This document shows positions 1,461 to 36,148 of a stretch of DNA of 64,000 bases, piece after piece. The stretch comes from a virus, in the IMG/VR virus record IMGVR_UViG_3300023301_000006, positions 1 through 64,000 of that record. The stretch is one strand, 5' to 3'. Under the pieces are notes generated by a model that was not told where the DNA came from, searched no databases, and saw nothing but the letters and a program-made list of their open reading frames with translations. Position 1 is the first letter of the stretch. Each line of letters opens with the position of its first letter. The translations under genes and the position numbers were made by a program.

Positions 1461-1593
1461 AAAAAACATAATTATACTTGAATTTGCCCTTAAATTACAT
1501 TTGTAATATAAAATATAGTTTAAGGGTATATTTATATCAAGAAAATAAAAGTAGTTTAGAACGAGATTTCATAAAAAGGGGTGATTGGGAAAA

Positions 1594-4243: not shown

Positions 4244-5053
4244 ATGAAAGATGTTTATGATTTAAGCAACGCTGGAATATGAGCTTCAAAAGGATACAAA
4301 GGTCAAGGGACACATGTTGTAGTTCTAGATGATGAAGGAGACGCAACCCCTTGAATGAATCAAGTCAAAACAATTGGTACAATCCCAGGAGTCTTTTCGC
4401 ACAACACAAAAGTAAGTTTAGTTGTAAAAAAAATGGCTCCACTATGTAGAGTAACTATGATTAATTTCATTGGTGAAAACAGCAATAGGATTCAGGCTTT
4501 AGAATGGTTAAAGAAAAACAAAGAAGACATTGACTTAATAAACATGAGCTTTTCATTGAGTCGTGCACAAGAAGGCTACCGACAGATTCTAAGATTGGGA
4601 ATTCCCATGATATGTTCTGCAGGCAATCAAAGTCTTGAGTACGTGAGGTATCCTGCTTCTGATTATCAAACCGTTGCAGTAGGAGCATTTGATAGGACTA
4701 CAGGAGAAATAAAAGATTACAGTAACATTGGTCGGAAACTAGATTGTGTTGGATTTACAGATATTAGCGTACAAAGGAATGTATCTGGGTTTATGTATTC
4801 AGTACGAGGCACTTCTGCCTCAGCTCCCTATGTGACAGGAATAATAGCTATATACATGAGTTTCCTTAAGTCTAAGGGTGTGTATAAAAAAATGAACTAC
4901 CGTGAAGTGAAACGATTCTTAAAAAACATCAGTGTCGATTTAGGCTCTACAGGAAAGGATGTTAGAACAGGGTCTGGTTTAATAAAGTTACCCAAAGAAA
5001 TTAAATTACACAATCCTTGTTGGACTTGATGGAATAAATTAAAAAGTTTATAA
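4244..5053 (+). CDS. S8 subtilisin-like serine protease; three TGA=Trp
   Basis: W-ASKGYKGQG, VVVLDD, SHNTKV, SAGN, GTSASAP; TGA at 4280, 4352, 5027; TAA at 5051. Confidence 0.85.
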
Positions 5054-7731: not shown

Positions 7732-8268
7732 TTAAATACTACTATTCTCTATGTCAAATACTATGTCTGCTGAACTTGCGTCCTCCCCCCATTGATATTC
7801 ATTCAATTGTTCAATAGCATGTACTCCTATCAATATTGCGTCACTTTCATCATTCGTTACTTTTATATTAAATCTATCCAACACGTATTTTTTTGAAGCT
7901 CTCTTTTTTTCAGTTCTTCCTTTACCTTTAATGCTTGAAGAACTCCTCCATTGAGAAGCTGTAACAACTAAAAACTGTATGTTGTTTTCATATAGTCAAG
8001 TTACTAATACATATAGTAGTCCAGATAATTTCTTATGTGTCGCTGCATTCCTCATATAGTAAACATCTTCAACTACTACTGCATCAATATCGTATTCCTC
8101 AACTATTTCTATCATTCATTTTTTTATTCCGGCAATCTTCTCTACGTACTTATTTCCATCCACTTTCATTTTCCCGTAATCTAACATCGATGCTTTACCA
8201 TCTTTGTAATTAAATACGGCAAACCCACTTGTGGTTGCTTGGTCTAAGGCTAAAATGTTTAATTCAAT
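7732..8268 (-). CDS. ruvC: RuvC-like Holliday junction resolvase; two TGA=Trp; probable ATT start
   Basis: Absent from ORF track; reads ILALDQATTSGFAVF...VVVEDV...SQWRS...NDESDAILIG; TGA at 8116-8118 and 7996-7998. Confidence 0.8.
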
Positions 8269-11232: not shown

Positions 11233-14200
11233 TTATCTTACAGGACAGTGACCACTTTCACATCCTGCTCCATCGTCTATCTCGAAGTCCGAACCATCTT
11301 CATAATCTGATAGTAACTCTTCGTCGAACTTTGGAAGTTCTTGAACCATATTCTTGTATTCGTCTTCAGTTATACTCTCGAAAGGAAGTAACTCATAAAA
11401 GCTATCATCTAATGATAAGAAAGATATTCCTACGAAACAATCCCAATTATCCCACAACCATTCCTCTACTAAGTCCCATTCATCTTTTCTAACATGGACA
11501 GTAATACTAGCATTATGGTCTACGAATTCTTCCATTAATAATTTGTACTCATCCAATTGTTCAATTGCACCTACGTCGTACTTAGTCCTACCCTTTGGAG
11601 CTTTAACAGGAAATTCAAATACTTTCGTAGAATGCTCTTCTCTAGTTTGTCCTACTTCTGGCTTCCATTCGAATCCGGAGTCTATCATAGACATCGCAAC
11701 AGGGTCTTTAGCTGATACTCTAACTCTTCTTATATAAAAAGGACTATGTGACCAATGAATACCCGAAGAAGCACTGTTAGGTAATATTGAAACTGTTCCT
11801 GCTGGTTGTGCTGTTGTTACTAATTCTGCTTTTGTTACATTATATTTCTTAGCTAATTCTTCATTCATGTTGTTTGCAACACTTCTCATGAATTTCAACA
11901 GCTTTTTCTTTTCATCTTGACTAATATTTCCTTTGTTTATAAAGTCTTGATATCCAGTCATTGAAACGCCAATTATTCTATCTTCTCTTGCAACATCATC
12001 CCACTCCAGTAAGTCCAACTCTTGTAGACTAATAATGAATGCTATATAAGTTGCCCATTCTACTGATTGCTCTAATTCATCATATAATATCCCTCCTGAT
12101 TCGTCTAAGAAAGATAACATGGATATAATGGTTAAATTACAATGTTGTTTCGATTTTAAAAGTATTTCCGCACCTTACCACACTTACTTTCATAAGCCAA
12201 CTTTAAGTTGTTGTAGTCTGGACTATACCATATTACATTTAAGTAATGAGATATTATAGTCTCTGAACATCCCCTATAAAATAAGGTTTTGATGCTGATT
12301 GTCCAATTCATACAATTTTTAACATTCGCGTTTATAGTTTCCTATTACGCTGTAGTTTGTATGACTCTAAGGAGTTTCCAGCAGTTTAATCTCTTTTAAA
12401 TCCACATGTTTGGTCTATGGATTAAGTCCTTCTGCGTCTGGTTTTCTTCTTTGAATCTCTTCTAGATTAGCTATTCCCACTTATATTAATCATAGACGCT
12501 ATTCATATGACCAGTCCTTAAAATGTAATAGGGACTGCTATATATTTCTATATAGGTTAGACTATATCATGACTCATTTGAGTCTCTTCCGCTTCGAATA
12601 CCAATAACTTGTATTCTACTCCTTTTCAGGATAGTCGTTGAACTTTAACAGTGTTGGAAGTTACATGTAACACTATTCTTAGCTGCTGATTGTCTTTGCC
12701 ATTACGCAGTAAGAGTTTCCAGCAATTCAAAAGATTTATAGAACCCAGTTTTTACTTTAGGCTCTCCAGAAACTTTCATAGTTTGAACATGCTCGTGTAA
12801 AGCCTCTCTTGCAGGTTTTTTCTTATACAGTACAGTGTTATTGCTCATTTGTCTATGTTTTATATCTGTGTCTATTTGCCATTTACCATTAACTTCTGTA
12901 TATAAGTTAGTCTTTGCATTTCTTGTTTCGTAATCGTCAGCAGACACTAAGGCAATTTCAGCTGCTCTCCTTACCATTTATATTCGAACATGTTCGTTAG
13001 GCATATCCCGTTCTCCTATGAACTGCTATATGTTGCCATATAGATTAGACTATATCTTCACTCTTATACATTTAAGCAAAAGAGGTTTCCTGTTTCCACT
13101 CACTTGAGTGTACGTCTTTCGACTAGTCGTTGCACCTTTTATAATTAATCTTCTTTTTATTTTTTTTACCAATCTTCCTTACAGAAGATTAATTATAACT
13201 TGGCTCAGAATTGTCTTAAGATACACTTAAGAGTTTCTCTGAATTTAAGAAATGTTTTTTTGTGTTGGAGGCATAAAATTTACCACCAACAACTATTGCT
13301 TCTGCTATTAAGCCATTAATATCTAACATATCAATAGGCTTTAGCTTAACTCTATGTCTGGTTATCTTACCACCGTTAGAATTTTTAATAATTCTGTCTA
13401 TTCCACTAAAAGACTCTTTTAAAGGTATATGACCACTTGCTGTGCCACCAAATGTCTTTAGGACCTCTCCCGCAGGACGAACATTATCATAGTTGAATAA
13501 GATAGTTTTTATTAAACCATCACTTGAACTAGCTTTGTAGTTGACTAAAAACTCTAAATAAATCTTTAATGATTCAGTCCAACCTCTTTTAGAATCTCCA
13601 ACTACAATCTCTAGTATAGAATTATTACTTAATGTCGTTGTTGTTAACTCTTGTCTAGCTAGTCTTGGAACAGGCTGATAGTCCTTGTGAATTATTTCTA
13701 TGTCTTGTCTTACTGGTTGTATCTTTTCAACGTCTTCTTTCAGTATTCTATATCCGACACCACTACCCAACATTAATAAGTACATTGCGTCAACTAGGTT
13801 AAATATATCGTCCATTGTGACATAACTACAATTAAAAGCACTTTGGAAATTTCTTTTAATGGATTCTGTCCCACCCGTATATCTGATTCTGCCAGAAGAA
13901 AATACTTTGAAATTGTACATCAAGTCAAATAATTCTTCTGCTTTCTCAGAGTCACCTTTGGGGTCTAACTCTATCATATAGTCCACAACTCTTGCGTTCA
14001 TTTCCAACCAAGTTTCTCGTCTATTTATGCCTTTAATAAATCTAGAGTATGTTCTATAGAAAGTAAATTTTGATAACTCTGAGTCAAATGGATTTGGGTC
14101 TCTAGCATAATCTCTTAAAAACTCTTTGTTCAAATATTTAAATTTCTTGTAAGGGTGCCACCTCTCCCTTATCTGTTTGTGCTTTTCTCTATATAATATA

Positions 14201-14457
14201 AAAGCTTTTACTACTTTGCCTTGGTCTGCGTGTACTAATTCAGACTCAACCATATCCTGTACTTGTTCTATTGTGAAACTTTTACCCATAAAATCTTCAT
14301 GATGTTTAGCTTCTTCTTCTATAGTTCTTCCTATATCCGAACACAGCTTCATATCAAGTTCTACGTCTTTGACATCTGAAAAGGCTGAGGCTATAGCATT
14401 AATAACCTTGTCTTTCTGAAATTCTTCTTCACTTCCATCTCTTTTAATAATAAACAT
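11233..14457 (-). CDS. nrdJ: Class II (AdoCbl) ribonucleotide reductase with ATP cone; four exons 14457-13282, 12974-12759, 12477-12417, 12173-11233 (797 aa)
   Basis: Splicing restores VVGG|VRRAA, GEP|G, NP-C-AEI; also RTYSR, FNC, PAGT and C-terminal CESGHCPVR. Confidence 0.9.
12174..12416 (-). mobile_element. Group I intron (nrdJ intron 3, 243 nt) splitting the catalytic Cys codon
   Basis: P1 AATCCAT/GTGGATT, terminal G; T|GT restores NPCAEI. Confidence 0.85.
12478..12758 (-). mobile_element. Group I intron (nrdJ intron 2, 281 nt)
   Basis: P1 GAGCCT/GGGTTC, terminal G, P7 core; restores GEPG. Confidence 0.85.
12975..13281 (-). mobile_element. Group I intron (nrdJ intron 1, 307 nt, ORF-less)
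   Basis: Exon ends in U pairing U-G in P1 (GTTGGTGGT/GCCTCCAAC), terminal G, GACTA/ATAGTC P7 core. Confidence 0.85.
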
Positions 14458-15619: not shown

Positions 15620-18600
15620 TTAACTATGTTTCTCACTTCTCATTTCTAATTTTCCATCGTCTGTTATTTTTTCAATTAAGTAAACTAAACTTTGCTTTGT
15701 CCTGGAATAATCTTTCCCCCTAAAAGTGGTTTCGCTCGACCTATATCCAGTAATCATAATTTTGTTGCCCCTACTAAAAAAACTACTATCTATAATAGAG
15801 CTATTCTTTTTGACTTGTCTATCGTAGTACGCAAAATCAGAACCTTTAAACTTTACAGTAACGACTCCACTCCTAGTTAATATTTGAGTCATATGTTTAT
15901 TCTTATTTCTGCTAAGGCAAGTTCCAATTATCGTTGATAAGTGAAATACTGGGTACTTGTCTTTCCAATAAAACTTCACAGGTTTTATTTTTAAGTCTTT
16001 AAATTTATCCACGAATGGATAATATTCATAGTCTATATAGTCTAATTCATTGTCTGTGGCATAATAGGATATAGAATCCATTTCCCATTTACCTATTGTT
16101 CCTTCAGTATAGTGGGACGCTTCTTCCACTATTATGATTTTATTGTACTCTTTTAAAAGTTCTTTTTCATTCTCTTTAATAAATTTTCTTAACTTATCTG
16201 CATCTTTCTCATAAGTAGACTCGAAAACTGATGACTCTACTAAATATTTGTCTTTCTTGTAAACAACTTTTAACTCTGGGTGTTCTACATTTAAAAATTC
16301 AATCATCATTTCTTGTAATGGAAAATATTTTTTGTCATCTACCTTTATTTCTTCGTTTGAACGTAGTATTTTTCTTAAGTACCACATTATTGAGCTATTC
16401 TTAACTTTTGTATTACTAAAAAATTTAGCATCAAATAGTCCAGCCATATTCCTTAAAGACAAGGAAGTTTTTACCTTTGCTTTTCCAGCAATATAATCCA
16501 TTAATAATTCTCTTCTGTCTTTTTCTTCAATGTTCCTGAAGGCATTTGACTTAATCAAGGATATATTTTTCCTCTTTGACGGTTTTATTCTTTTATAAAA
16601 GTCTCCATAGCTAGTGTATGGTCTACTCTCTACTATTTCAGTAACAAGGTCATCACCAACGTAAGACATTCCTTTTAGTCCGAATAATATAACTCCTCCA
16701 TCAAAGTCTGGGGTAAATACATATCCAGATTTATTGATGTCTGGAGGTGCTATTGTTATTCCAACTTGCTCCATATTACTAATTGCCACAGCTACTTTAC
16801 CATAGTTAGAAGATGTGTTCTTATCTCCATCTTGGTCTATTGCACCACTTTCAACTGTTAAACAAGCTGAATTCCAAGCTAAGTCATTATACTCATATGT
16901 TAAGTTTAAAATTTGCAAAGCTATCATAGAATAAGGTAAGGTATGATTCCGACTAAAACTATCATGTTGTTCCCACATTTTTGTGGGCATGGACTAACTC
17001 TTTAAAGTTTAATATCTCTCTAATAAGGTATTAAACTTTATCCACTGTTTGGAGAATAGGAATTTCACCTAAACTCTACTTCCCTTGCGGGAATAGTCTC
17101 TACACTCGCTTTCGCTAGCACGGGATTGTCATATCCATAAATGGACTTAGATTTCCCCGTTAGCACTAAATTAATAGTACACCCTATATTTATAGGTTAA
17201 GTGGAATGGGCAATTTTATTTACCCAAGTTGAGGAACTACACAATGATGCCATACGTAATTTATTATTTCCTCTCTTGCTCCAGTTCTTTCCTTCGCTTT
17301 ATCGAAGTAATCTTCTTTTAACTTATCTATTAATTTAGCTTTCTTCTTTGCTATGGCTTTTCTAGCCTTATGTGCCTCTACAACAGTAAAGCCAGATATG
17401 GATTCGTCCATTAGGATTTCCATAATGTCTTCTTGTGTAGCCGCAATGCCGTAACTTTTATCTAAGTGTTTCTTCATTGTCATTATCTCATCTTCGTTTA
17501 AGCCTTGTAGGTGCATTTCTTCATACCAAAGACTTATATCCTTTCTAAACTTAATAAACTTATCTAATGGTTGAATACTTCCTCCACTAGATGATAATCT
17601 CATTAATGAGTTTGCTGTTGCCATCTCCACCAATGAATGAGGTGCTACTTCTCTTATGGCTTTAGAACCCACCATTGTATCAAATTGGAATAGAGAAACA
17701 ATTTCACCTTTCGCAGCTTTGTCCCACATTTCTAAGTTGTCATACTCAAGGACAGCAGGAGATAAATACTTATCATAAGTCTCCCTTAGTGTTTCTTGTC
17801 TTTCCATCGCACCGTTGGTGATTAAATGATTCATAGTTATTCTAATTTTATCTAGAATCTTTACAGTTAAGAAGTCAAATTTGACTCCTCCCATATACAT
17901 CTTTATCCTATGTTTCCACAGGGACGGACTATTTCATGTTCTATTTTAAAATAGAACTCTTGCACTTCGACTGGGACAATATCCAGTCTACGCCTCTCGG
18001 CTAGTCTCTACATCTTTCTCTTGCTTCAATAATAGTTTTTATAAAGTTCTGAGGTTTTAAAAGCCCTATAAAGTTGGGAATGCCCCTTTAAATTTAAGTC
18101 TCTTAGGACTAAAGTTACTGAGTCATATACCTCAACTAGATTCCAATTGATATCATATTTGTAAACTTTTTTAGAACTTGTTGCACCGACATCAACTTTA
18201 CCAATATTAGAACCAACAACTCCTTTTTTAGATTCACTTATTTTTTATTGTTATTTACACTATTATTAAAACTTAAGACTTGACACGAGATTGCCATATT
18301 GCCGAAGCAACTTAGGTTTCCTCGTTAGCTTAACCCCTTTAATAAGGATTAAACACCCTTTTTGTCGTAAGGTTCACAAAATTTACTATAACTCTCACAA
18401 GTTATAGGGACTATATAATTAATCCGAATCTGACATGTCAAACTGAGTTGTAGGAACATCACTCGGAGACATCATCAAAGCATTCCTTTTATAATAAGGT
18501 TCATTATATATATAGATACCAGAGGCATGTATGCTTCTCTTGTCTATAATTCCCTCGAATGCTAATATCGTCTCCTGTAATTTTTTATCTTCATATTCTT

Positions 18601-20233
18601 CCAACTTAGACAAAAACTCTTGTTGAACTCCTCTTTCCTTTTCTCTATTGCCGAATATAACGTCTGCCAATGGTCAGTTAGCACCCCTCTCTTCTGGAAC
18701 CAATCCAGTTAAATATAATGCTTCTGACTCCTCGATACCTAAACCACGACAAGCAGATGTTATACTACTCCTAGAGCCAATTGTTCCAAAGGTGGCTATG
18801 TTTAATACTCTATCTTCTCCAAACTCTACATTTAAAGCCTTAAGTATTTGACCTCTCTGTGACTTTTGTGAGTCCAAGTCAATGTCCATAATGTCTGGTC
18901 TGTCTTTGTGGAGAAACCTCCACCAAGGAATGTCCCATTTTAAAGGGTTTATTTGTATTATGTCTATCAAGTAATTTATTAATAATCCTGTTGCTGAACC
19001 CCTTGAAGGTCCTACAAGACTGTCTCCCTCTTCCCACATTATTTCAACTAATCTCTTTGTTGTCAATAAATAATTAGCCATATTCTTACCAATTCTCTCA
19101 CTCGTTCCTAGTATATGTTCTAATTCTACATCCACTCTTTGTAGTACTTCTTCTGTTGGTTCAATATCTTTTTTACTCTTTATTCCTCTTAACGTATGAT
19201 AAATTAGAGCCTTATCATATCTGTCCTGGCTATTTAAGTATCTAGTAATATATTTGTACCCCTTAAACATTTCTTTTGTCTTAGAGTCAAATTCATGGTC
19301 CTCAACTGGAACTTTGGTTATATCCACTGATTGAGCCAGACTAATATTCTGACATTGCTCTCCTATAATCAATGTATTTCTAAAGCATTCGTCTATTTCT
19401 TCTTCTGGAATGTGATTGTGCATTATTTCCTTTATTTCTTTTTCTGACATCATATAGGTAAAACCATAAAAGGCATCGACCTCTCTCTCTCCTTCTTGAG
19501 ATTGTAAAAAAGCTCTGTGAATACTTCTATCTTCTTTTGACAGATAATGGGAGTCAGTAGTTATTATACTCTTAATGTCTTTCGAATCCCCTATTGATTT
19601 TATCATTCTATTCACCATAGTTTGTTCTTCTGATGTTGATGGTTGTAATTCAAAAAAGAAGTTGTCTTTCTCAAAAGCATTGATACACCATTCGATAAAC
19701 TTCTTAATCCTATCTTGAGCTACTGATTTTTCTATCTCACCATTATACATCCCCATTAAAGTATTAGGCAGAAAACCACCTAAACAAGCTGTTGTAGCCA
19801 TTAAGTGACCTCTGTTTGTACTAATAATTTCTTCTATTTGGGAATAAGTTATTGGAACTCTTCTCATTCCTCTATCATAGTAAGAATTGGTCCAAGCTTG
19901 AGACGATATCTTTTTTAATTGCTCATAACCGATTTCATCTTTCGCTATTAATATAAAATGATAATACTGTTGATTGTTCCCTAGTGAATCTACTAAATAT
20001 ATTTCGTCTCCAAAAGCCACAGTAAAGTTTTCATCTATAACTCCTTCTTCTACTAATTTGGTTCTATATTTGTCTGCTTTCACATGTGAGCTTAATACCT
20101 CATGGTCTGTTATTGCTAAACCACTTAATCCTAGCTCTATTGCCCTATCTATTAAGTCTGTAACTTTATTTGTAGAGTCTGCTAGTCTTAAGTTAGAATA
20201 ATCTGTATGATTGTGTGAAGAAAAATAATTCAC
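15620..20233 (-). CDS. dnaE: DNA polymerase III alpha subunit; exons 20233-18422, 17897-17222, 16962-15620; one TGA=Trp
   Basis: PHP domain HNHTDYS/TDH/TTDSH, SRGSA, DIDLD, HASG, KFDFL, G|YSFSRNH; TGA at 18674-18676 in RGAN-W-PL. Confidence 0.92.
16963..17221 (-). mobile_element. Group I intron (dnaE intron 2, 259 nt)
   Basis: P1 GGGT/GCCC, terminal G, T|AT restores GYSFS. Confidence 0.85.
17898..18421 (-). mobile_element. Group I intron (dnaE intron 1, 524 nt) with endonuclease remnant
   Basis: P1 GGAT/GTCC, terminal G, restores DSD|YMGGVKFD. Confidence 0.85.
18008..18244 (-). pseudogene. 3' remnant of intron homing endonuclease (NUMOD-type DNA-binding tail)
   Basis: KISESKKG...KKVYKYDINWNLVEVYDSV...YKNYY(TGA=W); no start codon or catalytic domain. 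Confidence 0.65.
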
Positions 20234-20313
20234 TTATACCTCCTTTTCTTTTTTTTCTTATCTTATATATACATTATACCATTATTTTATAATTTTTACA
20301 ATATCTTTTTTTC

Positions 20314-22056
20314 TTAAAAAACGAAAGAACTACTTGCTTTTATCTCACACTCATCTACGATAATTTGAGGGACAACCTTACCATTTCACTCATTCGTGTT
20401 CGGCTTACCTATTAAACTAATTTCAAGGGAGTTACCATTTGGTATATTTGCAATTATTTCCTCTGCTCTAAACATTATATACTCAACACCATTAAAAATA
20501 ATCTTTATAATATTAGATTTCTTTCCGATTAGTTGTAGCTCTGATGCGTCTATTTTAATATTAGATACCATAATCTTAGGCTCTCTCAATCTAGTTCCCC
20601 AAAGGTGTTTCATATCATTTAATTTAAAGATGTACTCGCTACTTACTTCAGTGGAGTCCATTAAGAAGTCTATGCTAAATACTTTTTCAAAATCATAGTC
20701 TTTTAATAGGTTGTTACTTAGCTCTATTAATGGTTTTATATTTTCTGGTTTTATACAAGTTCCGAAAGCTGCTTGATGACCTTCTGCGTATTCTACTAAA
20801 CCAGTATTGTTTAAGTACTTCTTAAATTCATTTAGTTTTGTTCCAGAGGGGCATCTACCACTACCATAAAATAAACCGTCTTCTTCATTCTTTAAAAGTA
20901 TTAAAGTTGGTCTATTATACTTGTCTTGTATTTTATTGGCAACTAGTCCAGTCATAGACCGCTCAATTATATTAGTCGCATTTAAGATTATAACTTTATT
21001 TCCTAATTGGTCTTTCTCAACTAACTGTGTTAATTTTTTCATACCATTAGTTTCTGCCTTCTTTTGTCTTATCTTAATATTACCTGCCATTCTAGCCATT
21101 TCCTTTTCAATGAATACTAGTTGTCCTTTGTTGTTTCTACCAGAACCTATTACCTTACTACCGTCTAGTATAAATGCTTTAAACATCATAATCTTCTCTT
21201 GCATATTTCCAAGTCTAATGACAGCATTTATCAATGGAGCTATATAGAACATTATGTCTATTGGATAAACATTGTCACCCAAAGAGTAGCTCTTTTTCTT
21301 TATTAATGCCTTGATGAATAAGTTTCCTTCAATATCATCATTCATTAATTTTACGCCTCTTCTGACTATTACAATATTATCTCTCAACCTCATGTCCATA
21401 TTATCTGAGGCTATCCCTAATGCTGCTAAATCTACTAACTGTTCTGAGAAATTAATACTATTTACATCATCTAGTGCTTGACAAAATTTAAACGCAACTC
21501 CAGCTCCACTTAAGAATTTATTGTTGTAGTCTGGAGATAATTGGTTGTTAACCACCATTGCATATTCAGATTCTTTACTTGCTTCATGGTGGTCTAGTAC
21601 AATAATACTTGTACCAGCGTCTGAGAGTTCTTTATGCTTTTTATATTGACTACTACCCGCATCTGGAATTATTACTAAGTCATATTCTTTCATCTTTTCA
21701 AGCTCTTCTCCATCTGGTAGTCCTACTTCTTTGTTTTCGTGTATAAAAAAGTCCATATCAGTAAGATTATAAACCTTATATAAATACTTTCATATGATAG
21801 ATGCTGAGGTATAACCATCAACGTCACTATCTACTACTATCATTACTTTTTTGTCACCTTGGCTAAGTTGTTCATCTAAGAACACAGATGTCTCTTTAAG
21901 ATTCTTTAACCTATACTTATCTTCTTCGTAATCTACGCTTGTGTCTTCTCTACTTAAAAATATGTTAATATCATCTGGACTTACTCCTCTTTTTAAAAGT
22001 AAATCCTCTTGAATAGAACTAGAAAGTCCTACTAAATTGTCTAATGAAAATTGCAT
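20314..22056 (-). CDS. recJ: RecJ-like DHH ssDNA exonuclease; two TGA=Trp
   Basis: DSDVDG, LDHH, GSGR, GHQAAFG, NE-W-NG; TGA at 21790-21792 and 20386-20388. Confidence 0.88.
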
Positions 22057-22080
22057 TTAATCACCCTTCTTTTTTTTAAT

Positions 22081-22290
22081 TTAACATTGGAAAAATTCCA
22101 ATGGATATATTCAGTCAATACTTTCTTCTGGAATGTTGAATTCTAACCCTTGTGCTTCGTAAACATTTTGCCCAGTAAATAGGTAGTCTTCCGCAACACC
22201 TACTCACACAAAATGGAAGCTTTTACCATCCATTTCTACCATAGATTTAGATAGCCCTTTAGTGATTTTTGGTCTATAAATTCCCTTCAT
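22081..22290 (-). CDS. Hypothetical protein, 69 aa; two TGA=Trp
   Basis: AGGAG RBS, fills the primase-recJ gap only if TGA 22204 and 22111 are sense codons. Confidence 0.65.
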
Positions 22291-22301
22291 ATTATCAGCT
22301 C

Positions 22302-23411
22302 CTACATTCTAATTTTTTTATGATATATTTTTTCGAAGACTTCTTTGCCCTGGTCTATTGGAGATTGCTTTCTCCTTAATAATTCATGCTCATCAACCAT
22401 TATAAAGACAGTAAAGTAAGGCTTTAAAAACTCTGCTAGTTTAAGCATGTTCTCAAAACATTCAACTCCTTCATCTGAGTAAAAATCTGTGTAATCTTTG
22501 TCTAAAGCCAAAACAACTCTATCTACATCTAAATGTAATAGCAATTTCACTTGTTGACTACTTATCTTTTTTCCAGCCATGGCTAAAGTAAAGTTGTTAT
22601 TCGGATAAATCGTTTCTGCTTTTAGAACACTTTTTTCTGATTCAAAAATTACTACTTGTCTTAAATTACGTATTACTTTTTTATTCCTGTATATACCATA
22701 AAAGTTCATGGAGGTAGGATGTGAAAAAATCTTCTTTTGTATCGTCATAGGCATGTATTTATATCCATCATTGATTTCACTTTTTCTAAGTGCTCTACCT
22801 CTTATTCCTATCAGATTATTATTTATATCGTAGTGGGGAATAACTACCCTGTTATCTGTTATTGAATATTTTATATTAAACTTCTTCATTGAGTCTATAG
22901 ATATTCCCTCTTGGATTCATCCTTTATAGAAAGCATCTTTATAAAAATTTATTGTGTAACTGGGTATCTTTTTAATTACCTGTATCTCTTCTTTACCATC
23001 TTCCATTGCTCTTTTGTATTCATCTATAAAATCTCATGTAAACTGTGTGTCTCTTTCTCTCTCTGTTTCTGTTTCTATACCAAAACCTAAGTTTATAGTT
23101 GTATGGTTTACAACGTATTCTATAGATTCTTCTAAACTTATCTTGTATCCTCTATACCACATTGTATCCTGTACTAACCCATATATATCATACGCATCTT
23201 GACCTCCTGTATAACATTTAAAAATCCCAGTTTCGAGATAATAATATAATTTATAACTCATCTTATCGTCTGGGTGGTGGTGGCACACTGTTTGGAAGAC
23301 AAGGCTATCTTTCCTTCTTTGAGGATAACTACTACCTAAGGACATTAAAACATCAATGATGTCATCCTCAGTTAGCTTGTCTCTTATGTCTTCTTTCATT
23401 TCAAAGAACAT
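22302..23411 (-). CDS. dnaG: DNA primase (Zn finger + TOPRIM); two TGA=Trp
   Basis: CHH...CYT Zn site, IPH, GIRGR, FESEKS, LDKD; TGA at 23034 and 22917. Confidence 0.82.
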
Positions 23412-23426
23412 TTAAGCACCTCCCAC

Positions 23427-26400
23427 TTAAAAGGTTTCGCTAGGGACATCCTCTGTACCCTGTTGTCTTTTTTTCTGTTCATTCTCAATAGTTATTACTG
23501 TTGACTTCATTGGTATTAATTCATATTTCGAATTAGTGACAAATAAATCAGTTATTCTACACGTTCCCAAATCTGCTATCGACCATAATTTTACGCCCTT
23601 GTACTTAGAACGTCTGTTCTTGTATACATGGAACACTATATTAGGTACTTCTAAGAAATTCTCATCTAAGATATGGGATATAGCTTTAATATCTTTTTCT
23701 GTTGGTTCTAAAGCAATTATTCCAACATCAATTTTCGTTTATACCGTCACTTTCGTGATATTTAATACGGACTAGACTATATCTGCACCTCCCTAGATGG
23801 GAGGGACTGGCTCTTCGTAATAAGGAATTACACCTTAAAACTACTCCCTTTATTGGCTGGGATAGTCGTTACACCTTTAACTAAACTTGGCACGGGATTG
23901 TCATAGGATTTCTCCCTTAGAGTTTCCCCGTTAGCACTAAATTAATAGCACACCTTACATTTGTAAGTTCACCAGTACCTAACTACGCCATTGCTGACAT
24001 AGACGACTCTAGTTTACTTTTTATTCGCATAGATTTATAATATTTTCTATGCTACTTACTTCTATTTTTTTTCAATTTCAACACACCTTTCTAAGATGCG
24101 AATAAAAAGTTATTCAAATCTGCCATTGATTTTGCCGTGTTACTCTTGTGTTTCCACAAGCACTGACTATCTCTTACTCTCCTACCAAGGAGAGAATTTC
24201 TGTTTCGGTTCTCAGTAGTTTAATTACTTAAAACTACGTTACTTATCAATAGTAACCCTACTTTCCATCTAACTGGAAATAGTCGATACAGCGACTTACT
24301 TAATACATTATTAAGTAATATGCCACGAGATTACCATAGCTCTCACCTTAGGCTTCCTCGTTAGCTTTAATTTGTTAAATTAAAACCCCACTTGATATGC
24401 GGATAAGAAATTTAGTGGCGTAAAAACACCACGTAATAAATTTTGTGTAGCTTGGTCTACTTTATCCCAGTCACCATTAACTTGCGTAGCAGTATATATA
24501 AAGACTCCTAACTCATTGGCTATCTTCTTTAATCTACTTACAAACATCAACAGAACATTATCTTCTCTTAGTCTGACTCCTCTACTGGCAGAAGCAATTT
24601 CGGCAAGTATCTTTAAAGTAGTGTGAACATAATCGAAAAATACATAATGTACATCATGCTTTAATTTATGTCTCGTTACCATATTGTCTACTTGTTGAAT
24701 ATTATGATTAGACAAGTGTTCTATCCAAATTGGAGCTCCCTTTATGATGTGTGCAGCTTCTATTACCCTTTCCTTTTCTCCTTCGTCATATTCTCCATCT
24801 AATATATGTGCCTCATTTACATTTGAGACAAAGGCAAGGAATAATGTTTGTATCTCTTGTATTTCTAGCTCTGTAGTAATAAATAGTGATGGCATACTTA
24901 TACCATTAGATACTCAATCATTTTTCTTTGAGTCCCAAACTTTATCTACTGCTAGGTTTATAGCATCTCCCGCACTGAATCTAGTATTGTGAGTTACAAT
25001 ATAATCATTCATTAGGAACAAGTGTTCATCGTTGTCAACTGTAAAACAAGTCATCTCTGTAGAGAAACCCATTTTTTCTATATTTACTATTGGATTATAA
25101 TCTTTATGCTCTTTTCTTTTTAACGTTAAAACATACTTATTCGCAATATTTAATTTTCTAGAAAACCTAAATACTTTTAGCTTATCTTCGTGTGGCATTT
25201 GTATATTAATTTTATAACAAACTCCTGTAGAGTATTTATCTCTTATGTCCTCTATGATTGTTGGTATATAACCAAGACTTCTAGCTAAACTCACAACGTC
25301 ATCTTTAAGTTTTACACTAATAGTGTGATAAGCAACTCTTCCTTTTTTATCTATTGAGCCATCTGTATCAAGAAGCCCCTGTAGTAGGCACATTCTTTGG
25401 TCTATAGACCCCAATAAATAGTCGTCAGGAATAAATTTATCTTCACTTTTGGCATTCCATAAGTCTTTGTAACCTATTGATTCTTCAACAGAAATTCTGT
25501 TGTTAGTGTTTTTTTCTTTCCTAAAGAACCAAGAATAGTTTTCACTTTTTTCTTTCTCATAGTGCCACCCCTCTAATTTGGACATTGTAGATATTATTTC
25601 TTCATCGGCAGCAGAGAACGTTAAATCTCTTCTTCCACTTACATACCTGAAACTTCCATCTCCCAATAGTGCTCCAAAAGTGTAGGGTTTAAGTCCATAT
25701 TCTTTTTCATTATACTCAACTGCACCATTTATCGGAACTTTAAAAGTATACCCACTTGTTCCTTTAAATCCACCAAGAGATTTAGCTTCTTCGAGTATCT
25801 GCTTAGTAGTTTTTGTCTTATGGGCACATCTTCTATCTGTAAAATATTCCCATAAGTGTTCGTCACATGTTTCGGCAACTCTACCATCAGCGAAAGTAAC
25901 TTTGTTTATTTCTTTTTCACTCTCTTGCGGATGGACGCCCACTACTTTTGTTGGCTTTCCATTTCTTCCAAAAATGTAAGAACCAATTTTTACCTCATCA
26001 ACCCTTTTAAATCCTTCTGGAGTTGGTATCTTAGTATAGTTTGGGATAGCCTTCCCCACACCAGTAGGAGCACTTCTCATATAGAGTTTTTTAAGTCTTG
26101 CACCTCTTACGATACCGTTTATATAACTGCCATTTAAAGGTAGTCCAATTGCAGGTTTTTCTAATAAGTCATCTATTAAACCAACAATATTTTGACCAGC
26201 TCTTTGTCCATAACTATCTGCACTCATTTCAAAGCTTTGTCTAACCTCTACTATCTTCATGTCTACTAGATTAATTATTTCATTTATAGACATCTTGTCT
26301 AAACCATTTTGCATTTTTTCTTTCTTGTCTGAATTAAGTTCGTCTGGGTCATATATAAATCTTATGTCTACCCCAGACTTCAAATAAGCCCTCAATAAAG

Positions 26401-26755
26401 AGAACTTTTTTACACGATTATAGTAATACACAAAATTGTCTCCATCAGCACTATTCTTTGCAAATTCAAGAGCTTCTAGTCCTCTATTACTCCGAAATAT
26501 TTCATACTGCTCTGGATACTTATTTAAATAACTGTCTATCGCAATAGAGTCCAACCTATCCACTCCAGAATTAACTAAATTATTTATCGCAGAGAAAACA
26601 ATTCTATGATGTCTTGCTACAAAATCTGACACCTCTAATTTAAATCTATCATGTTTTAATAATGTTGTTGGGTTGTTCAAAAGAGCACCAAATAACATTA
26701 ATACTGCTTTGTTGTCGTACAATTCTTCTATATTTATATCTTTAAAACTACTCAA
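23427..26755 (-). CDS. dnaB: Replicative DnaB-like helicase with intein, two introns and one TGA=Trp; exons 26755-24428, 24135-24118, 23735-23427
   Basis: APTGVGK/T Walker A split by intein, FFDY, TATQ, spliced LRG|AKSMAD|KIDVG, KNRR; TGA 24914-24916. Confidence 0.9.
23736..24117 (-). mobile_element. Group I intron (dnaB intron 2, 382 nt)
   Basis: Exon ends in U, terminal G, P7 core; shares CCCCGTTAGCACTAAATTAATAG with dnaE intron 2. Confidence 0.8.
24136..24427 (-). mobile_element. Group I intron (dnaB intron 1, 292 nt)
   Basis: P1 GTGGT/GCCAC, terminal G, GACTA/ATAGTC core. Confidence 0.85.
24986..26050 (-). mobile_element. Class 3 intein (355 aa) with LAGLIDADG endonuclease in DnaB P-loop
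   Basis: Starts with Ala, ends THN/T; WCT triplet (HLW, MTCF, VTHN); LLGDG and LQGLLDTDG. Confidence 0.88.
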
Positions 26756-26765
26756 AGTTCACCTC

Positions 26766-27260
26766 CTATAATTCTTTCATATCTATCTTTCTTTTCTCGA
26801 AAACACTTTTTTTATCTGGTCTCGCTATAACTACCTTATGTTCTTCCTTATTCACTTTTTGGTTACCAGACTCCTTGCTCTCTTTAACCTTCCTATAGTA
26901 AATAGAAGCGTCCTCATAAACGTAGGGTACTATTCCTATTCCGCCATGAGCTTTCTTAGTAGAATTCCCTTCTAGTATAAACCAGTACTCTAGGGTTTTT
27001 CATATGCCAAAGTAAGTGTAACCTTTTTTTTGATAGTCTTTTATCTGTTTAAGTATTCTAGGACTTGGATATTTTATATCAAATATTTTTTTTATTATTT
27101 CCACCATATTTTCATGGTTTACCACAGAATTCGCTTCATCAACTTCTGCTTGTTCTTCTACACATTCTTTGTGATAATATCTTCTTCCCTTCTTCACAAA
27201 ATCCACTTCTTCTTTATAGAAGCGTTCCTCACAAACTGGACATTTTACTTTATTTGCCAT
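26766..27260 (-). CDS. Zn-finger protein upstream of helicase; one TGA=Trp
   Basis: CPVC...YHKEC; read-through of TGA 27000 gives TLEYWF...GIGIVPYVY ending TAG just before dnaB RBS. Confidence 0.75.
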
Positions 27261-27317
27261 TTAACCACCTCTTCATTAATAAAAAAAATAGGAGTATTAT
27301 ACTCCTATTCAATTTTA

Positions 27318-28349
27318 CTACTTCAATTCGTTCTCTATTCTATTATTTATTAGGAATAAAATGTCTACTTGAGATTTACTCATCTCAGAAACCTTTCTTC
27401 CTTTTCCTAGTTCTTCTTCTACTAGGGTTATTATTTTGTCTGACAACTCTCTTTTGCCCTGAGTAACTTCATCAGGGTCTTCTAAATTACCTAGTAATGC
27501 AATTCCCTCTTCCATAAACGCTCCAGTTAAATCATCAAATCTATTTTTTTCTTCCTGGAAAGTTCCGTGGTCTTCTGCAGTTTCTTCTCTTAAGTTCTTT
27601 ACTTCTTCAGAAACTTTAATGCCTTTTTCTTCCGCCTCAGACAAGACTGCATCTTTAACTGCCTCGGCTAATCCATCATGAGAAAACTCTACGAAAGGTT
27701 TGATATTTTTAAATCTACTTCCAGCTTCAAATCTCTCTGTTCCTCTTAAGAATAATTTTCTGCTTTCAACCCCCTCTGAATTTGTCACCATTCTAGCATA
27801 AGCGTAAATATCAACAGCTCTTGTTACAACCTTGTGAGCTCTCTTGTCTAATGTTGTTGTGATTTTATTGTACTCATGACCACTTTCATCAGTGAAGACT
27901 TTATCTTTATCATGAGAGATGATTACTAGACCATATCCCATTTTTGGAATTTCTCTAATGAATCTATCAAATTCTTCTTCATACATTCCATAACCTTGTC
28001 CGTATCCAATATCTCCTATTTTACCAACTTGTTCTCTGTTACAGATATAATCTTTTACGTACTCTACAGCTATGTCAGCAGTGTCGACTATGACAGTCTC
28101 ATACTGGTCCTTGACTTCATCTTTCGACAACTGTCTTAATACTTCTTTAGCTTCAGTTCATTTATTAATTGATACAGCCTTTACTCCGAATAAAGCACTG
28201 TACCCTTTTTCAAAAGCTAATAGTAGAGGTTTTGGAAATTGACTTGCATTGTATGTTTTGCCAACTTTTTTCTCACCATAAATCATTACTGAATACCCCT
28301 TTAGATTGGTACTAGGGATATGTTCTTCCACATTCATTAAATCTAACAT
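27318..28349 (-). CDS. AAA_24/Sak4-like phage NTP-binding protein; one TGA=Trp
   Basis: YGEKKVGKT, FEKG, IVDT, ISH, AGSR; TGA 28158 joins Walker A and Walker B halves. Confidence 0.82.
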
Positions 28350-28396: not shown

Positions 28397-29284
28397 CTAA
28401 AAGTTTGATGGGTCAAAACTACCGCCAGAACCACTAGTCTCTTTAGCTTTAGGTTTAGCAGGCTTAGATGTTTTGCTTTTTGACTTTAAATTGATATTTC
28501 TCATCTTAAGTGCTTCTTTAACTTCTTCAATGGCATATTCTTTACCATCTGAGTAAGGAGTTGTTCCTCTAGTGACAAGCAATCTTTTCTTCGATACTGT
28601 TCTTTCTTGAACAATGTCTTCTCCAAAAGCCATCTCTTCTGTCTTGGTGATAGTAACTTCTTTATTTTTCATTTGACCGAATAATTTAACAGTGTCTCCT
28701 TTTTTATATTGAGACTCAACGTAACTCACTCCTTGTGGACTTTCTACTGCAAATTCTAACTCCACAACGCTTCCTGCGTACCCAATAAAATAACCTTTTA
28801 TAATCTTAGCTCCTGTTTCCATTTGTGTTTCCTCATCCATTTCATCAAATATAGAGTCAATTAATACTTCAACTTCGAATGTTCCAGTAGGTTCGAATTC
28901 TCCTTTTATTCTATTTGGGAATACACCTCTTACATTGTAGTTCTCAAGTATACTTCCATCATCTGTCATAAAACTATTTGGAGATAACTCTGCACTAGTA
29001 AATTCTACATTATCTCCTTTTTGCCCTTCTCCTGCGTCTGCTGAAGACTTATAAGTTTCCATGATAGATTTGAAACTCTTGAATAATTTACTTTCCCCAC
29101 CAGCTTTTTTAAACTTTCCTGCATACATGTTTACTTTGACAATATTATCATCACTTGTTTTGATTGACAAGTCTCCTGCGATATAGGGGAAACCATCTCT
29201 CTTACTAATATTTTGCTCGAGAGTATTCTCCATTAATTCTCCCTTAATAACTACTGAACTGTAACCCTGTCTTAAATCTGACAT
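28397..29284 (-). CDS. ssb: Single-stranded DNA-binding protein
   Basis: Tandem OB-like halves, FGE linker, flexible tail ending in F; replication operon context. Confidence 0.6.
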   Translation of the reverse strand: MSDLRQGYSSVVIKGELMENTLEQNISKRDGFPYIAGDLSIKTSDDNIVKVNMYAGKFKKAGGESKLFKSFKSIMETYKSSADAGEGQKGDNVEFTSAELSPNSFMTDDGSILENYNVRGVFPNRIKGEFEPTGTFEVEVLIDSIFDEMDEETQMETGAKIIKGYFIGYAGSVVELEFAVESPQGVSYVESQYKKGDTVKLFGQMKNKEVTITKTEEMAFGEDIVQERTVSKKRLLVTRGTTPYSDGKEYAIEEVKEALKMRNINLKSKSKTSKPAKPKAKETSGSGGSFDPSNF

Positions 29285-29371
29285 TACATCACTCCTTTAT
29301 TTTTTTTTATACTTTCATTTTCTACATCTATAATTATATCATATAAATTTAATTTTGTCAAATATTATTTT

Positions 29372-34443: not shown

Positions 34444-34446
34444 ATT

Positions 34447-36119: not shown

Positions 36120-36148
36120 TTGACAAAAGCACAAGAGTGTGATATAAT
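36120..36148 (+). promoter_or_regulatory. Consensus promoter for the ncRNA/tRNA island
   Basis: TTGACA-N17-TATAAT with extended -10 TG. Confidence 0.85.

What the first reader, a model, noticed from the sequence alone, without database searches (positions are those of the whole stretch)
15620..28349. Almost every core lytic replication gene carries a TGA, while the plasmid Rep has none: candidate genetic-code switch
Seen: dnaE, recJ, primase, dnaB, the Zn-finger gene, the AAA ATPase, ruvC and most lysis enzymes each hold 1-4 TGAs that would truncate them; nrdJ, tdk, dut, ssb, the NAD genes (Trp-rich pnuC included) and rep use only TGG. Inference: a plasmid-state genome could be maintained in the host code while the lytic replisome and lysis genes stay off until the UCA tRNA is expressed. 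Recoding is usually described for late and lysis genes; gating of the replisome in a phage-plasmid would extend that.
Basis: partly seen in the sequence, partly recalled or inferred. Interest (0 to 1): 0.85.

Follow-up and report, generated by a model that had tools for sequence, protein, structure and literature searches.

The report
TGA-as-tryptophan phage with recoded replisome
This salt-lake phage reads the stop codon TGA as tryptophan inside its own DNA-replication and lysis genes but not in its early and accessory genes, a known kind of phage code change that here covers the whole replisome.

Summary
Under TGA=Trp the SPbeta-like replication block (yorF to yorL: AAA_24 ATPase, Zn-finger, DnaB, primase, RecJ, DnaE) reads through, and all 7 of its genes that have any Trp codon carry TGA (10 TGA, 24 TGG). 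Lysis-side genes have 8 TGA and 15 TGG. The roughly 60 genes right of 33.5 kb have 3 TGA and 102 TGG (Fisher 4e-5).

TGA means Trp. It aligns with SPbeta Trp at 4 of 9 sites. It swaps with TGG in three close relatives: 3, 1 and 6 swaps.

The host very likely uses the standard code. The phage carries peptidoglycan hydrolases, TGG dominates (185 to 27), and the three MAGs holding TGA-recoded relatives all have RF2.

The "switch" reading is only partly supported:
- 14 of 46 related replisome loci carry two or more in-frame TGA or TAG codons.
- Borges et al. already call replication genes "variably" recoded.
- Rep has one Trp codon and foreign codon usage, so it says nothing.
- TGA stops are nearly absent genome-wide.
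- Nothing shows when the tRNA is made.
- The contig is incomplete.

The only UCA tRNA found is a 98-nt, Sec-shaped, non-canonical one. The scan noted the same thing in an overlapping window of this genome (e1-6170749).

Verdict: new member of a known kind; moderate interest.

The parts
18419..20233 (-). DnaE (YorL-like) exon 1: PHP and NTPase domains. TGA at codon 520 (bases 18674-18676).
   Evidence: Pfam. Aligns to SPbeta YorL residues 5-620; the TGA lies opposite Trp in a column that is Trp in all 4 sequences of alignment A2.
17901..18418 (-). Intervening sequence splitting dnaE. Intron-like, class unknown.
   Evidence: Absent from relative L003, which joins 18423 directly to 17895. No Rfam match at E<=0.1.
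17220..17900 (-). DnaE exon 2 (finger domain). 3 TGG, no TGA.
15620..16990 (-). DnaE exon 3 (HHH_6). 5 TGG, no TGA.
20314..22056 (-). RecJ-like exonuclease (YorK-like). TGA at codons 89 and 557.
   Evidence: Pfam DHH, DHHA1 and RecJ_OB. Codon 557 is TGG in L003 and L006; codon 89 is TGA in L003, L006 and L066.
22081..22290 (-). 69-aa ORF. TGA at codons 29 and 60.
   Evidence: Codon 29 is TGG in L003 and L066.
22302..23411 (-). DNA primase (YorJ-like). TGA at codons 126 and 165.
   Evidence: PHROG 47. Codon 165 lies opposite SPbeta Trp and is TGG in L003 and L006.
24380..26755 (-). DnaB helicase (YorI-like), first exon. Holds a LAGLIDADG intein at about 24980-26051. TGA at codon 614, in the C-extein.
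   Evidence: Pfam. The TGA lies opposite SPbeta Trp. The intein is absent from L066 and from contigs of runs X2, X3 and X5. The last exon lies at about 23514-23735.
26766..27260 (-). YorH-like Zn-finger protein. TGA at codon 87.
   Evidence: PHROG 4680. The TGA is conserved in L066; L006 has Lys there.
27318..28349 (-). AAA_24 / Sak4-like ATPase (YorG-like). TGA at codon 64.
   Evidence: Pfam. The TGA lies opposite SPbeta Trp and is conserved in L066.
28397..29284 (-). YorF-like protein. No Trp codon at all.
29333..29361 (-). Perfect TTGACA-17-TATAAT promoter-like site in front of the replisome gene string.
   Evidence: Own scan. A consensus match only, not evidence of function.
39324..39421 (+). 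98-nt tRNA-like gene, the candidate UGA decoder. Anticodon loop CUUCAAA (UCA), 6-bp D stem, long variable arm, non-canonical T loop, G73 and an encoded CCA end.
   Evidence: Rfam tRNA-Sec 24 bits, below the 47-bit gathering score. The minimum-free-energy fold is a cloverleaf, but its z-score is only -0.46. Missed by ARAGORN. Same architecture as the tRNA-Sec of MAG G001.
39236..39318 (+). Adjacent aberrant tRNA-like gene with a CCA (Trp) anticodon loop and a GCCA end.
   Evidence: Sequence read; fold. No tRNA model calls it. Lead from note e1-6170744.
36120..36148 (+). Perfect sigma-70 consensus promoter-like site just upstream of the ROOL RNA and the tRNA array.
1585..4236 (+). Multi-domain lysin: S8, Amidase_2, two PG_binding_1 and NAGPA. 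TGA at codons 19, 155, 199 and 568.
   Evidence: Pfam. Codon 568 sits in GPQT-W-ATI, matching the 'TW' of a PG-binding repeat in 3bkh (by analogy between repeats).
4244..5053 (+). S8 subtilase-like protein. TGA at codons 13, 37 and 262.
   Evidence: Pfam. The PDB alignments did not reach the TGA sites.
7732..8265 (-). RuvC-like resolvase with two TGA codons. Probably starts at a non-ATG codon near 8265.
   Evidence: Pfam. Read-through translation shows the N-terminus IELNILALDQ.
62516..62626 (.). Iterons: a 21-bp unit repeated 5.3 times.
   Evidence: TRF, 98% matches.
62691..63410 (+). Rep_3 initiator. One Trp codon (TGG) and deviant codon usage.
   Evidence: Pfam Rep3_N and Rep3_C. GC3 is 0.40 against about 0.27 elsewhere. 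At most 32% identical to plasmid RepM proteins.
51142..51810 (-). PnuC. 14 TGG and no TGA: the clearest example of a TGA-free gene.
13216..14457 (-). nrdJ first exon. 3 TGG and no TGA. Preceded by a perfect promoter-like site starting at 14521.

Best explanation
The window is part of an incomplete genome of an SPbeta-like phage from hypersaline and salt-lake water. The record is 72.4 kb. The exact sequence of one of its proteins is on record on a 115.6-kb contig, so the genome is probably at least that long.

The phage decodes UGA as tryptophan while its host very probably uses the standard code. The decoder is presumably phage-supplied. The only candidate on the contig is a 98-nt, Sec-shaped tRNA(UCA) at the end of a tRNA array that sits behind a perfect host-type promoter.

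Genes that a naive host ribosome must read at the start of infection stay free of TGA. These are small early genes, nucleotide and NAD metabolism genes, and the imported Rep_3 gene.

In genes translated once the decoder is present (replisome, RuvC, lysis), TGG and TGA drift into each other almost like synonymous codons.

The phage replisome therefore depends on the code change. That dependence looks mainly like a by-product of when genes are expressed and of a weak cost per TGA. It does not look like a purpose-built lock between plasmid and lytic states.

Shown: TGA means Trp, the class skew, the turnover between TGA and TGG, and the depletion of TGA stops.
Inferred: the host code, the identity of the decoder, its timing, and any regulatory use.
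For: TGA means Trp
- 4 of 9 replisome TGAs lie opposite Trp in SPbeta.
- DnaE codon 520 lies in a column that is Trp in all 4 aligned sequences.
- Swaps between TGA and TGG against relatives: L003 (about 94% nucleotide identity) 3 swaps and 4 TGA conserved; L066 1 swap and 8 conserved; L006 (72% amino-acid identity) 6 swaps and 2 shared.
- Across all three comparisons only two TGA sites face a non-Trp codon. Both are in the L006 comparison: window yorH codon 87 (TGA) faces Lys in L006, and L006's TGA in g15052 faces Ser in the window.

Near-neutral turnover
- Share of aligned Trp sites in replisome genes that swap, against the share of aligned Lys, Glu and Gln sites that swap A and G in the third position: L003 12% against 11-18%; L006 26% against 25-43%; L066 6% against 18-23%.

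Skew
- Permutation p = 3.5e-4; replisome against the right half 4e-5.
- It is not explained by recent gene import. GC3 is 0.25-0.30 and A-ending Lys/Glu/Gln/Leu (two-fold TTR) codons make up 0.68-0.81 of their A/G pairs in every class except Rep.

Host is not code 4
- Amidase_2, PG_binding_1 and SLT genes imply a walled host.
- TGG outnumbers TGA 185 to 27.
- prfB scores above its cut-off in 3 of 3 MAGs that hold TGA-recoded relatives. One of them also has a true tRNA-Sec.

Genome-wide adaptation
- Final stops are 69 TAA and 29 TAG. At most 2 are near-terminal TGAs.
- In 18 comparison loci, 17 of them relatives without in-frame stop codons in the replisome genes, 7-40% of ORF ends are TGA.

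Same layout in a distant relative
- G002:C53 (127.8 kb): coding density rises from 0.779 under code 11 to 0.880 under code 4. A canonical tRNA(UCA) sits in a TGA-free zone. TGA occurs in structural, replisome and nrdJ genes.

Promoters
- Perfect consensus sites stand before the tRNA array (36120), the replisome string (29361) and nrdJ (14521).
Against: - All 7 replisome genes that have Trp codons carry at least one TGA. Under random placement of 10 TGAs on 34 Trp codons that has P = 0.016. This evenness fits selection for one 'lock' per gene at least as well as it fits drift.
- Even in replisome genes TGA is only 29% of Trp codons, against about 72% A-ending for comparable two-fold codons. Turnover is therefore not fully neutral, or the recoding is recent.
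- The replisome string and the TGA-free nrdJ both sit behind perfect host-type promoters. Transcription timing alone does not obviously separate the two sets.
- The candidate tRNA has features expected of SerRS or Sec substrates: a long variable arm, G73 and a 6-bp D stem (the identity rules are recalled, not tested).
- At least 43 kb of the genome was not seen.
Confidence: 0.6

Rival explanations
1. Purpose-built code switch. The genome persists as a Rep_3 and iteron plasmid that is read in the host code. TGA codons in every replisome and lysis gene keep the lytic programme translationally off until tRNA(UCA) is expressed.
For: - Every replisome gene that has Trp codons carries at least one TGA, P = 0.016.
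- The replisome string has a perfect host-type promoter, so a translational lock would add control.
- A Rep_3 gene with 5.3 iterons is present.
- Rep_3/RepB homologues occur in two Clostridioides phages. That these are phage-plasmids is recalled, not tested.
- TGA-free classes share the genome's codon usage, so their lack of TGA reflects selection.
Against: - Rep has one Trp codon and foreign codon usage.
- TGA stops are avoided even in the 'host-code' genes: at most 2 of 98.
- The tRNA array sits behind a perfect constitutive-looking promoter, not an obviously inducible one.
- Two ORFs inside the tRNA array themselves need TGA read-through.
- TGA positions show no bias towards the 5' end of genes (one search lists them).
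- No partition genes, repressor or integrase turned up among the 60 proteins scanned.
- In relative c53 the nrdJ gene also has TGA, and in c1 only RecJ does among replisome genes.
Confidence: 0.2
2. The host itself uses table 4, so the pattern is ordinary codon usage.
For: - TGA is almost never a stop.
- Some relatives are binned with Mollicutes-like MAGs, by the record titles.
Against: - Peptidoglycan hydrolases and PG-binding domains are present.
- TGG outnumbers TGA 185 to 27, with about 72% A-ending use in other two-fold codons.
- RF2 is present in all 3 MAGs tested, including the Izimaplasma bin.
- Use is strongly non-uniform.
- Two near-terminal TGAs are each followed by TAA or TAG within 2-3 codons.
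Confidence: 0.03
3. UGA is decoded as something other than Trp. The Sec-shaped, long-arm tRNA(UCA) might carry Ser, or Sec.
For: The tRNA has a long variable arm, G73 and a 6-bp D stem, like the tRNA-Sec of MAG G001. That SerRS recognises such features is recalled, not tested.
Against: - TGA sits at Trp positions conserved out to SPbeta.
- It interchanges with TGG 10 times in three relatives. Only two TGA sites face a non-Trp codon, one Ser and one Lys.
- No SECIS or SelB was looked for or seen.
- A canonical tRNA(UCA) may lie in the part of the genome not seen, as it does in relative c53.
Confidence: 0.05
4. The TGAs are assembly errors or mark decaying pseudogenes.
For: None beyond the presence of stops under code 11.
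Against: - The same TGA codons recur in independent assemblies: L003, L066 and L006.
- Frames stay open.
- The proteins keep 30-43% identity to SPbeta across the aligned stretches. Those cover nearly the whole protein except in DnaB, which an intein and intron-like sequences split.
Confidence: 0.01

Closest known systems
TGA-to-Trp (code 4) recoded gut phages: the Agate, Jade and Sapphire clades of Borges et al. (bioRxiv 10.1101/2021.08.26.457843; passages read)
   Same: - In-frame TGA read as Trp in a phage of a standard-code Firmicutes-type host.
- A suppressor tRNA.
- Early genes compatible with the standard code, and lysis genes recoded.
- TGA depleted as a stop.
- Genome size near 130 kb for Agate.
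   Different: - Here every replisome gene with Trp codons is recoded. The main-text Agate examples keep replication genes in the standard code, although a supplementary legend says replication genes are 'variably' recoded.
- The habitat is salt lakes, not gut.
- The only UCA tRNA seen is Sec-shaped.
- No TrpRS or RF1 was found on the 72 kb.
- Whether this phage belongs to any of those clades was not tested.
phAss-1 group: TAG-recoded phages compared with Spbetavirus (PMC10607447; passages read)
   Same: [quoted passage not shown]
   Different: The reassigned codon is TAG, not TGA. The source is the human gut. Relatedness to this window was not tested directly.
Bacillus phage SPbeta (SPBc2) replication module, yorF to yorL
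   Same: Same gene order, with 29-46% amino-acid identity for yorF, G, H, I, J, K and L.
   Different: SPbeta uses the standard code. Its yorL and yorI are uninterrupted, whereas here dnaE lies in 3 pieces and dnaB holds an intein plus intron-like sequence.
Host-level code 4 of Mycoplasma and Spiroplasma (recalled)
   Same: UGA is read as Trp by a tRNA(UCA), with a tRNA(CCA) gene next to it.
   Different: There the whole organism lacks RF2 and TGA is the main Trp codon. Here TGA is 13% of Trp codons and is confined to some gene classes.
Phages carrying Rep_3/RepB genes, such as Clostridioides phage phiSemix9P1 (its status as a phage-plasmid is recalled)
   Same: A Rep_3-family initiator inside a phage genome.
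   Different: Only 23% identity. A plasmid state for this phage is not shown. No recoding was looked for in those phages.

Membership tests
Stop-codon-recoded (code 4) phage | In-frame TGA in conserved genes at positions that are Trp in relatives | tested here: met
   4 of 9 sites lie opposite SPbeta Trp. One site lies in a column that is Trp in all 4 aligned sequences. There are 10 swaps between TGA and TGG in three relatives.
Stop-codon-recoded (code 4) phage | Coding density higher under code 4 than under code 11 | tested here: met
   0.795 rises to 0.848 with greedy ORF sets. The rise is modest because only 27 codons are involved.
Stop-codon-recoded (code 4) phage | Phage-encoded suppressor tRNA(UCA) | tested here: inconclusive
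   There is a 98-nt cloverleaf with a UCA anticodon, G73 and a CCA end. It scores below the Rfam threshold and ARAGORN misses it. No relatives of it were found.
Stop-codon-recoded (code 4) phage | Host uses the standard code | tested here: inconclusive
   The evidence is indirect: peptidoglycan hydrolases, and RF2 in 3 of 3 MAGs that hold TGA-recoded relatives. The host of this phage itself is not identified.
Stop-codon-recoded (code 4) phage | Uneven use, with a subset of genes readable in the standard code | tested here: met
   Permutation p = 3.5e-4.
SPbeta-like YorL-type replication module | Gene order yorF-G-H-I-J-K-L with sequence similarity | tested here: met
Phage-plasmid | Plasmid-type replication initiator with iterons | tested here: met
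   Rep3_N and Rep3_C domains. 21-bp iterons repeated 5.3 times.
Phage-plasmid | Partition system, and no integration module | tested here: inconclusive
   None was found among the 60 proteins scanned. Many small ORFs were not scanned, and at least 43 kb of the genome was not seen.
Phage-plasmid | Extrachromosomal maintenance in a lysogen-like state | not testable with these tools
   The record is a linear 72.4-kb contig without terminal repeats.
Organism-wide code 4 (Mollicutes type) | TGA is the main Trp codon, used uniformly, in a wall-less host lacking RF2 | tested here: not met
   TGA accounts for 27 of 212 Trp codons and is clustered. Peptidoglycan hydrolases are present. RF2 is present in the candidate host bins.

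The most novel reading that the evidence does not exclude
A translational timer or lock on a whole replisome. The replisome operon and the tRNA array are both driven by perfect host-type promoters. Every replisome gene has kept at least one UGA, so its output is set by the level of a phage-made, tRNA-Sec-derived tRNA(UCA) that has been re-targeted to Trp. A recently captured Rep_3 and iteron replicon lets the genome idle as a plasmid on the host replisome while that tRNA is low.
Probability: 0.15. Interest if true: 0.7.

Novelty: new member of a known kind. Interest (0 to 1): 0.4.

Why it matters
- It adds a non-gut (salt-lake) lineage of SPbeta-like phages to the known TGA-recoded phages.
- It gives unusually direct comparative proof that TGA and TGG are interchangeable: 10 swaps in three close relatives.
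- Recoding of replication genes turns out to be common in this phage family. 14 of 46 loci show it, and RecJ is the hot spot.
- If the per-gene evenness of TGA (P = 0.016) and the Sec-shaped tRNA(UCA) hold up, the system would make two open questions testable. One is whether phage recoding is regulation or drift. The other is how a class-II-shaped tRNA can deliver Trp.

Tried and rejected
Searches that led nowhere
I could not fetch the 115.6-kb contig on which the exact P0001 sequence is on record. Structural genes and any further tRNA, TrpRS or RF1 of this phage remain unseen.
- The single-protein scan of genome contigs with DnaE found nothing. The alignment scan worked.
- Viral contigs: the tRNA(UCA) 20-mer gave 0 hits. 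The lysin gave 0 relatives. DnaE gave 1 relative, L003.
- Metagenome contigs: P0001 gave 0 relatives. g30453 gave 80 loci, but 78 of the 80 carry too little of the replisome to score. Only L066 was useful.
- No suppressor tRNA, and nothing resembling the window's UCA or CCA tRNAs, turned up in the 126 loci scanned, nor in MAG G001.
- Rfam found no intron family in the dnaE and dnaB intervening sequences.
- PDB searches: RuvC gave no hit. The S8 alignments did not reach the TGA sites.
- No RNA holder was listed among the sequencing runs. The contig lay-down showed relatives covering the tRNA region, but the variant table was cut before it, so I have no covariation test for the tRNA.

Explanations considered and dropped
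- 'TGA-free genes are recent imports'. Codon usage is uniform across classes except Rep.
- Near-terminal TGAs as true stops. 2 cases are suggestive but not significant genome-wide (expected about 0.6 by my own estimate counts).

Supplements
- The supplementary tables of Borges et al. could not be seen. They may list per-gene recoding of replication genes.

Searches behind 'not in print'
-. No listed paper combines 'phage-plasmid' with recoding terms.

Full report
WHAT IS THERE

The window is the first 64 kb of a 72,423-bp virus record without terminal repeats. On the minus strand, 15620-29284 encodes a replication block. It has the gene order and sequence of Bacillus phage SPbeta yorF to yorL:
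- a YorF-like protein;
- an AAA_24 / Sak4-like ATPase;
- a YorH-like Zn-finger protein;
- DnaB;
- primase (PHROG 47);
- a RecJ-like exonuclease;
- a DnaE-type polymerase (Pfam).

DnaE lies in three pieces that abut on SPbeta YorL at residues 620/622 and 843/845. DnaB carries a LAGLIDADG intein and is cut again near its 3' end.

THE OBSERVATION

Under table 4 these frames are open. Under table 11 each is cut by 1-2 TGA codons:
- DnaE 520;
- RecJ 89 and 557;
- a 69-aa ORF 29 and 60;
- primase 126 and 165;
- DnaB 614;
- YorH-like 87;
- YorG-like 64.

Further TGAs lie outside the stated span: RuvC (2), the five-domain lysin (4), an S8 protease (3), g526 (1), a permease (1) and g29372 (1). Two small ORFs inside the tRNA array also carry one each.

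TGG-only genes include nrdJ, tdk, dut, a dNMP kinase, pnuC (14 TGG), NadR-like and NMNAT-like genes, and Rep_3. I could not find an ssb.

In a curated set of 98 genes there are 27 internal TGA and 185 TGG:

| class | TGA | TGG |
|---|---|---|
| replisome | 10 | 24 |
| lysis side | 8 | 15 |
| RuvC | 2 | 2 |
| nucleotide metabolism and neighbours | 1 | 29 |
| genes right of 33.5 kb, without the tRNA-array ORFs | 3 | 102 |

Shuffling the labels gives p = 3.5e-4 for the class table and 5e-5 for runs along the genome. Fisher's test gives 4e-5 for the replisome against the right half, and 0.007 against nucleotide metabolism and neighbours.

WHAT TGA MEANS

- Four of the nine replisome TGAs lie opposite Trp in SPbeta.
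- DnaE codon 520 is Trp in all 4 sequences of a four-phage alignment.
- Three close relatives are decisive.
  - L003 (IMG/VR, about 94% nucleotide identity) keeps 4 of the TGAs and has TGG at 3.
  - L066 (a metagenome contig) keeps 8 and has TGG at 1.
  - L006 (72% amino-acid identity in DnaE) shares 2, has TGG at 4 window TGAs, and has TGA at 2 window TGGs.
- Only two TGA sites face a non-Trp codon, both in the L006 comparison. Window yorH codon 87 faces Lys in L006, and L006's TGA in g15052 faces Ser in the window.
- In replisome genes the swap rate between TGA and TGG resembles that of A/G third-position swaps at conserved Lys, Glu and Gln codons. The figures are 12% against 11-18% (L003), 26% against 25-43% (L006) and 6% against 18-23% (L066).

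TGA is therefore Trp, and it is close to synonymous with TGG in these genes. It is still under-used: 29% of Trp codons, against about 72% A-ending in comparable codons.

WHOSE CODE

A table-4 host is very unlikely.
- The phage carries Amidase_2, PG_binding_1, NAGPA and SLT genes, so the host has a wall.
- TGG dominates.
- TGA use is clustered.
- The three MAGs whose bins hold TGA-recoded relatives all have prfB above its curated cut-off. By their record titles these are a Halanaerobiales MAG, an Izimaplasma MAG and a Bacilli MAG.
- The Halanaerobiales MAG also has a true tRNA-Sec at 67.5 bits.

Sequencing runs place this DNA in a hypersaline-lake metagenome, and relatives in lake and salt-lake metagenomes. 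The host of this phage itself was not identified.

THE DECODER

ARAGORN finds 15 tRNAs in the window and 16 on the contig, none with a UCA anticodon. Rfam adds a tRNA at 38616-38687, which I read as Gly(UCC).

Rfam also gives a 24-bit match to tRNA-Sec at 39324-39417; the gathering score is 47. Its lowest-energy fold is a cloverleaf:
- a 7-bp acceptor stem;
- a 6-bp D stem with a 3-nt loop;
- the anticodon loop CUUCAAA;
- a 7-bp variable arm;
- a non-canonical T loop;
- G73 and an encoded CCA end.

The energy is not better than that of shuffled sequence (z = -0.46). The shape matches the host-type tRNA-Sec of G001.

An equally odd tRNA-like gene with a CCA anticodon lies just upstream (lead from note e1-6170744). 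By recalled identity rules a long arm plus G73 suggests SerRS, whereas the codon evidence demands Trp. This is unresolved, and a canonical tRNA(UCA) may lie in the unseen part of the genome. Relative G002:C53 has a canonical 74-nt one.

No TrpRS or RF1 appeared among the 60 proteins scanned.

IS IT A SWITCH?

For:
- All 7 replisome genes with Trp codons carry at least one TGA, P = 0.016 under random placement.
- The replisome string, nrdJ and the tRNA array each follow a perfect TTGACA-17-TATAAT site. Transcription alone therefore does not obviously separate TGA-bearing genes from TGA-free ones.
- TGA-free classes share the genome's codon usage, so their lack of TGA reflects selection rather than recent import.

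Against:
- Rep has a single Trp codon. Its GC3 is 0.40 against about 0.27 elsewhere, and its share of A-ending codons is 0.45 against about 0.72. It is a recent import and says nothing.
- TGA is almost never a stop anywhere. There are 69 TAA and 29 TAG final stops, and at most two near-terminal TGAs. In 18 comparison loci, 17 of them relatives without in-frame stops in the replisome genes, 7-40% of ORF ends are TGA. The 'host-code' genes are thus also shaped by read-through.
- Two ORFs inside the tRNA array need read-through themselves.
- TGA positions show no bias towards the 5' end of genes.
- In relative c53 nrdJ carries 4 TGAs. In c1 only RecJ is recoded among replisome genes. The class boundary moves.
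- The evenness across genes is also what a cost per TGA in long genes would give.
- There are no data on tRNA timing, and none on a plasmid state. The Rep_3 gene with its 21-bp iterons is real, but the contig is incomplete.

HOW NEW

Among 46 related DnaE loci from genome bins:
- 3 carry two or more in-frame TGAs in replisome genes (L006, L014, L020);
- 11 carry two or more in-frame TAGs, mostly in RecJ;
- 2 more carry a single TAG.

Borges et al. describe code-4 phages of Firmicutes with recoded lysis and structural genes. [quoted passage not shown] Two literature searches found no paper linking phage-plasmids with recoding.

I therefore file this as a new member of a known kind. Three features are worth follow-up: the whole replisome is recoded, the habitat is salt lakes, and the tRNA(UCA) is Sec-shaped.

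VERDICT

The best reading is a phage-specific change of UGA to Trp whose codons accumulate in genes translated after the early phase (confidence 0.6). The purpose-built plasmid/lytic switch remains possible (0.2). Interest 0.4.

Noticed in passing
window 36166-36726 (+): Full-length ROOL RNA (Rfam RF03087, 293 bits). It starts right after a perfect promoter-like site at 36120-36148 and sits immediately upstream of the tRNA array.
   Followed up: partly
window 36746-36814 (+): A 69-nt match to the ends of the tmRNA model (44.8 bits, just under the 47-bit gathering score). It lies between the ROOL RNA and the first tRNA.
   Followed up: no
window 38616-38687 (+): A tRNA found by Rfam (57.8 bits) but missed by ARAGORN. 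From the anticodon loop CUUCCAA I read it as Gly(UCC).
   Followed up: partly
window 38714-38806 and 38825-39145 (+): Two ORFs with strong Shine-Dalgarno sites inside the tRNA array. One is a 30-aa CxxC...CxxC mini-protein with TGA as codon 2. The other is a 106-aa protein with TGA at codon 14. Both need UGA read-through.
   Followed up: no
window 12538-12809 and 13026-13291 (-): Two group I introns (Rfam, 94.8 and 71 bits) split nrdJ. Relative L003 joins 13282 directly to 12974, so it lacks the second intron. It has an extra insertion near 12662-12670 instead.
   Followed up: partly
window 16991-17219, 17901-18418 and about 23736-24466 (-): Intron-like intervening sequences in dnaE and dnaB that match no Rfam family at E<=0.1. 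Their presence differs between close relatives. Relative L003 carries two stretches, each about 74% identical both to window 17058-17198 and to window 23823-23969, which suggests one family of mobile elements of unknown class.
   Followed up: partly
window 24980-26051 (-): LAGLIDADG intein in DnaB. It is absent from relative L066 and from contigs of three other runs (joint 24976 to 26070).
   Followed up: partly
G000:C1 66300-72423 (-) and window 33250-36150 (+): Dense arrays of perfect TTGACA-16/17-TATAAT sites: 13 on the minus strand between 66.3 and 72.4 kb, and 5 on the plus strand between 34.1 and 36.1 kb. They look like early-promoter clusters.
   Followed up: no
window 7732-8265 (-): The RuvC-like gene lacks an ATG for its conserved N-terminus (IELNILALDQ). 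It probably starts at ATT or ATC behind a GAAGGAG Shine-Dalgarno site that overlaps the tdk stop.
   Followed up: partly
window 62691-63410 (+): The Rep_3 gene has a GC3 of 0.40 and 45% A-ending codons, against about 0.27 and about 72% in every other gene class. This suggests recent capture from a plasmid.
   Followed up: partly
window 29372-30439 and 45131-46453 (-): Two paralogous proteins of unknown function with Cys-rich (CxxC) C-termini. One has a conserved sense TGA 14 codons before its end. The other has a TGA 2 codons before a TAA.
   Followed up: no
L012, L013, L019, L032, L039, L050 and others (genome-contig loci): In TAG-recoded relatives the RecJ-like gene is by far the most heavily recoded replisome gene, with up to 15 TAG codons. 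DnaE usually has none.
   Followed up: no
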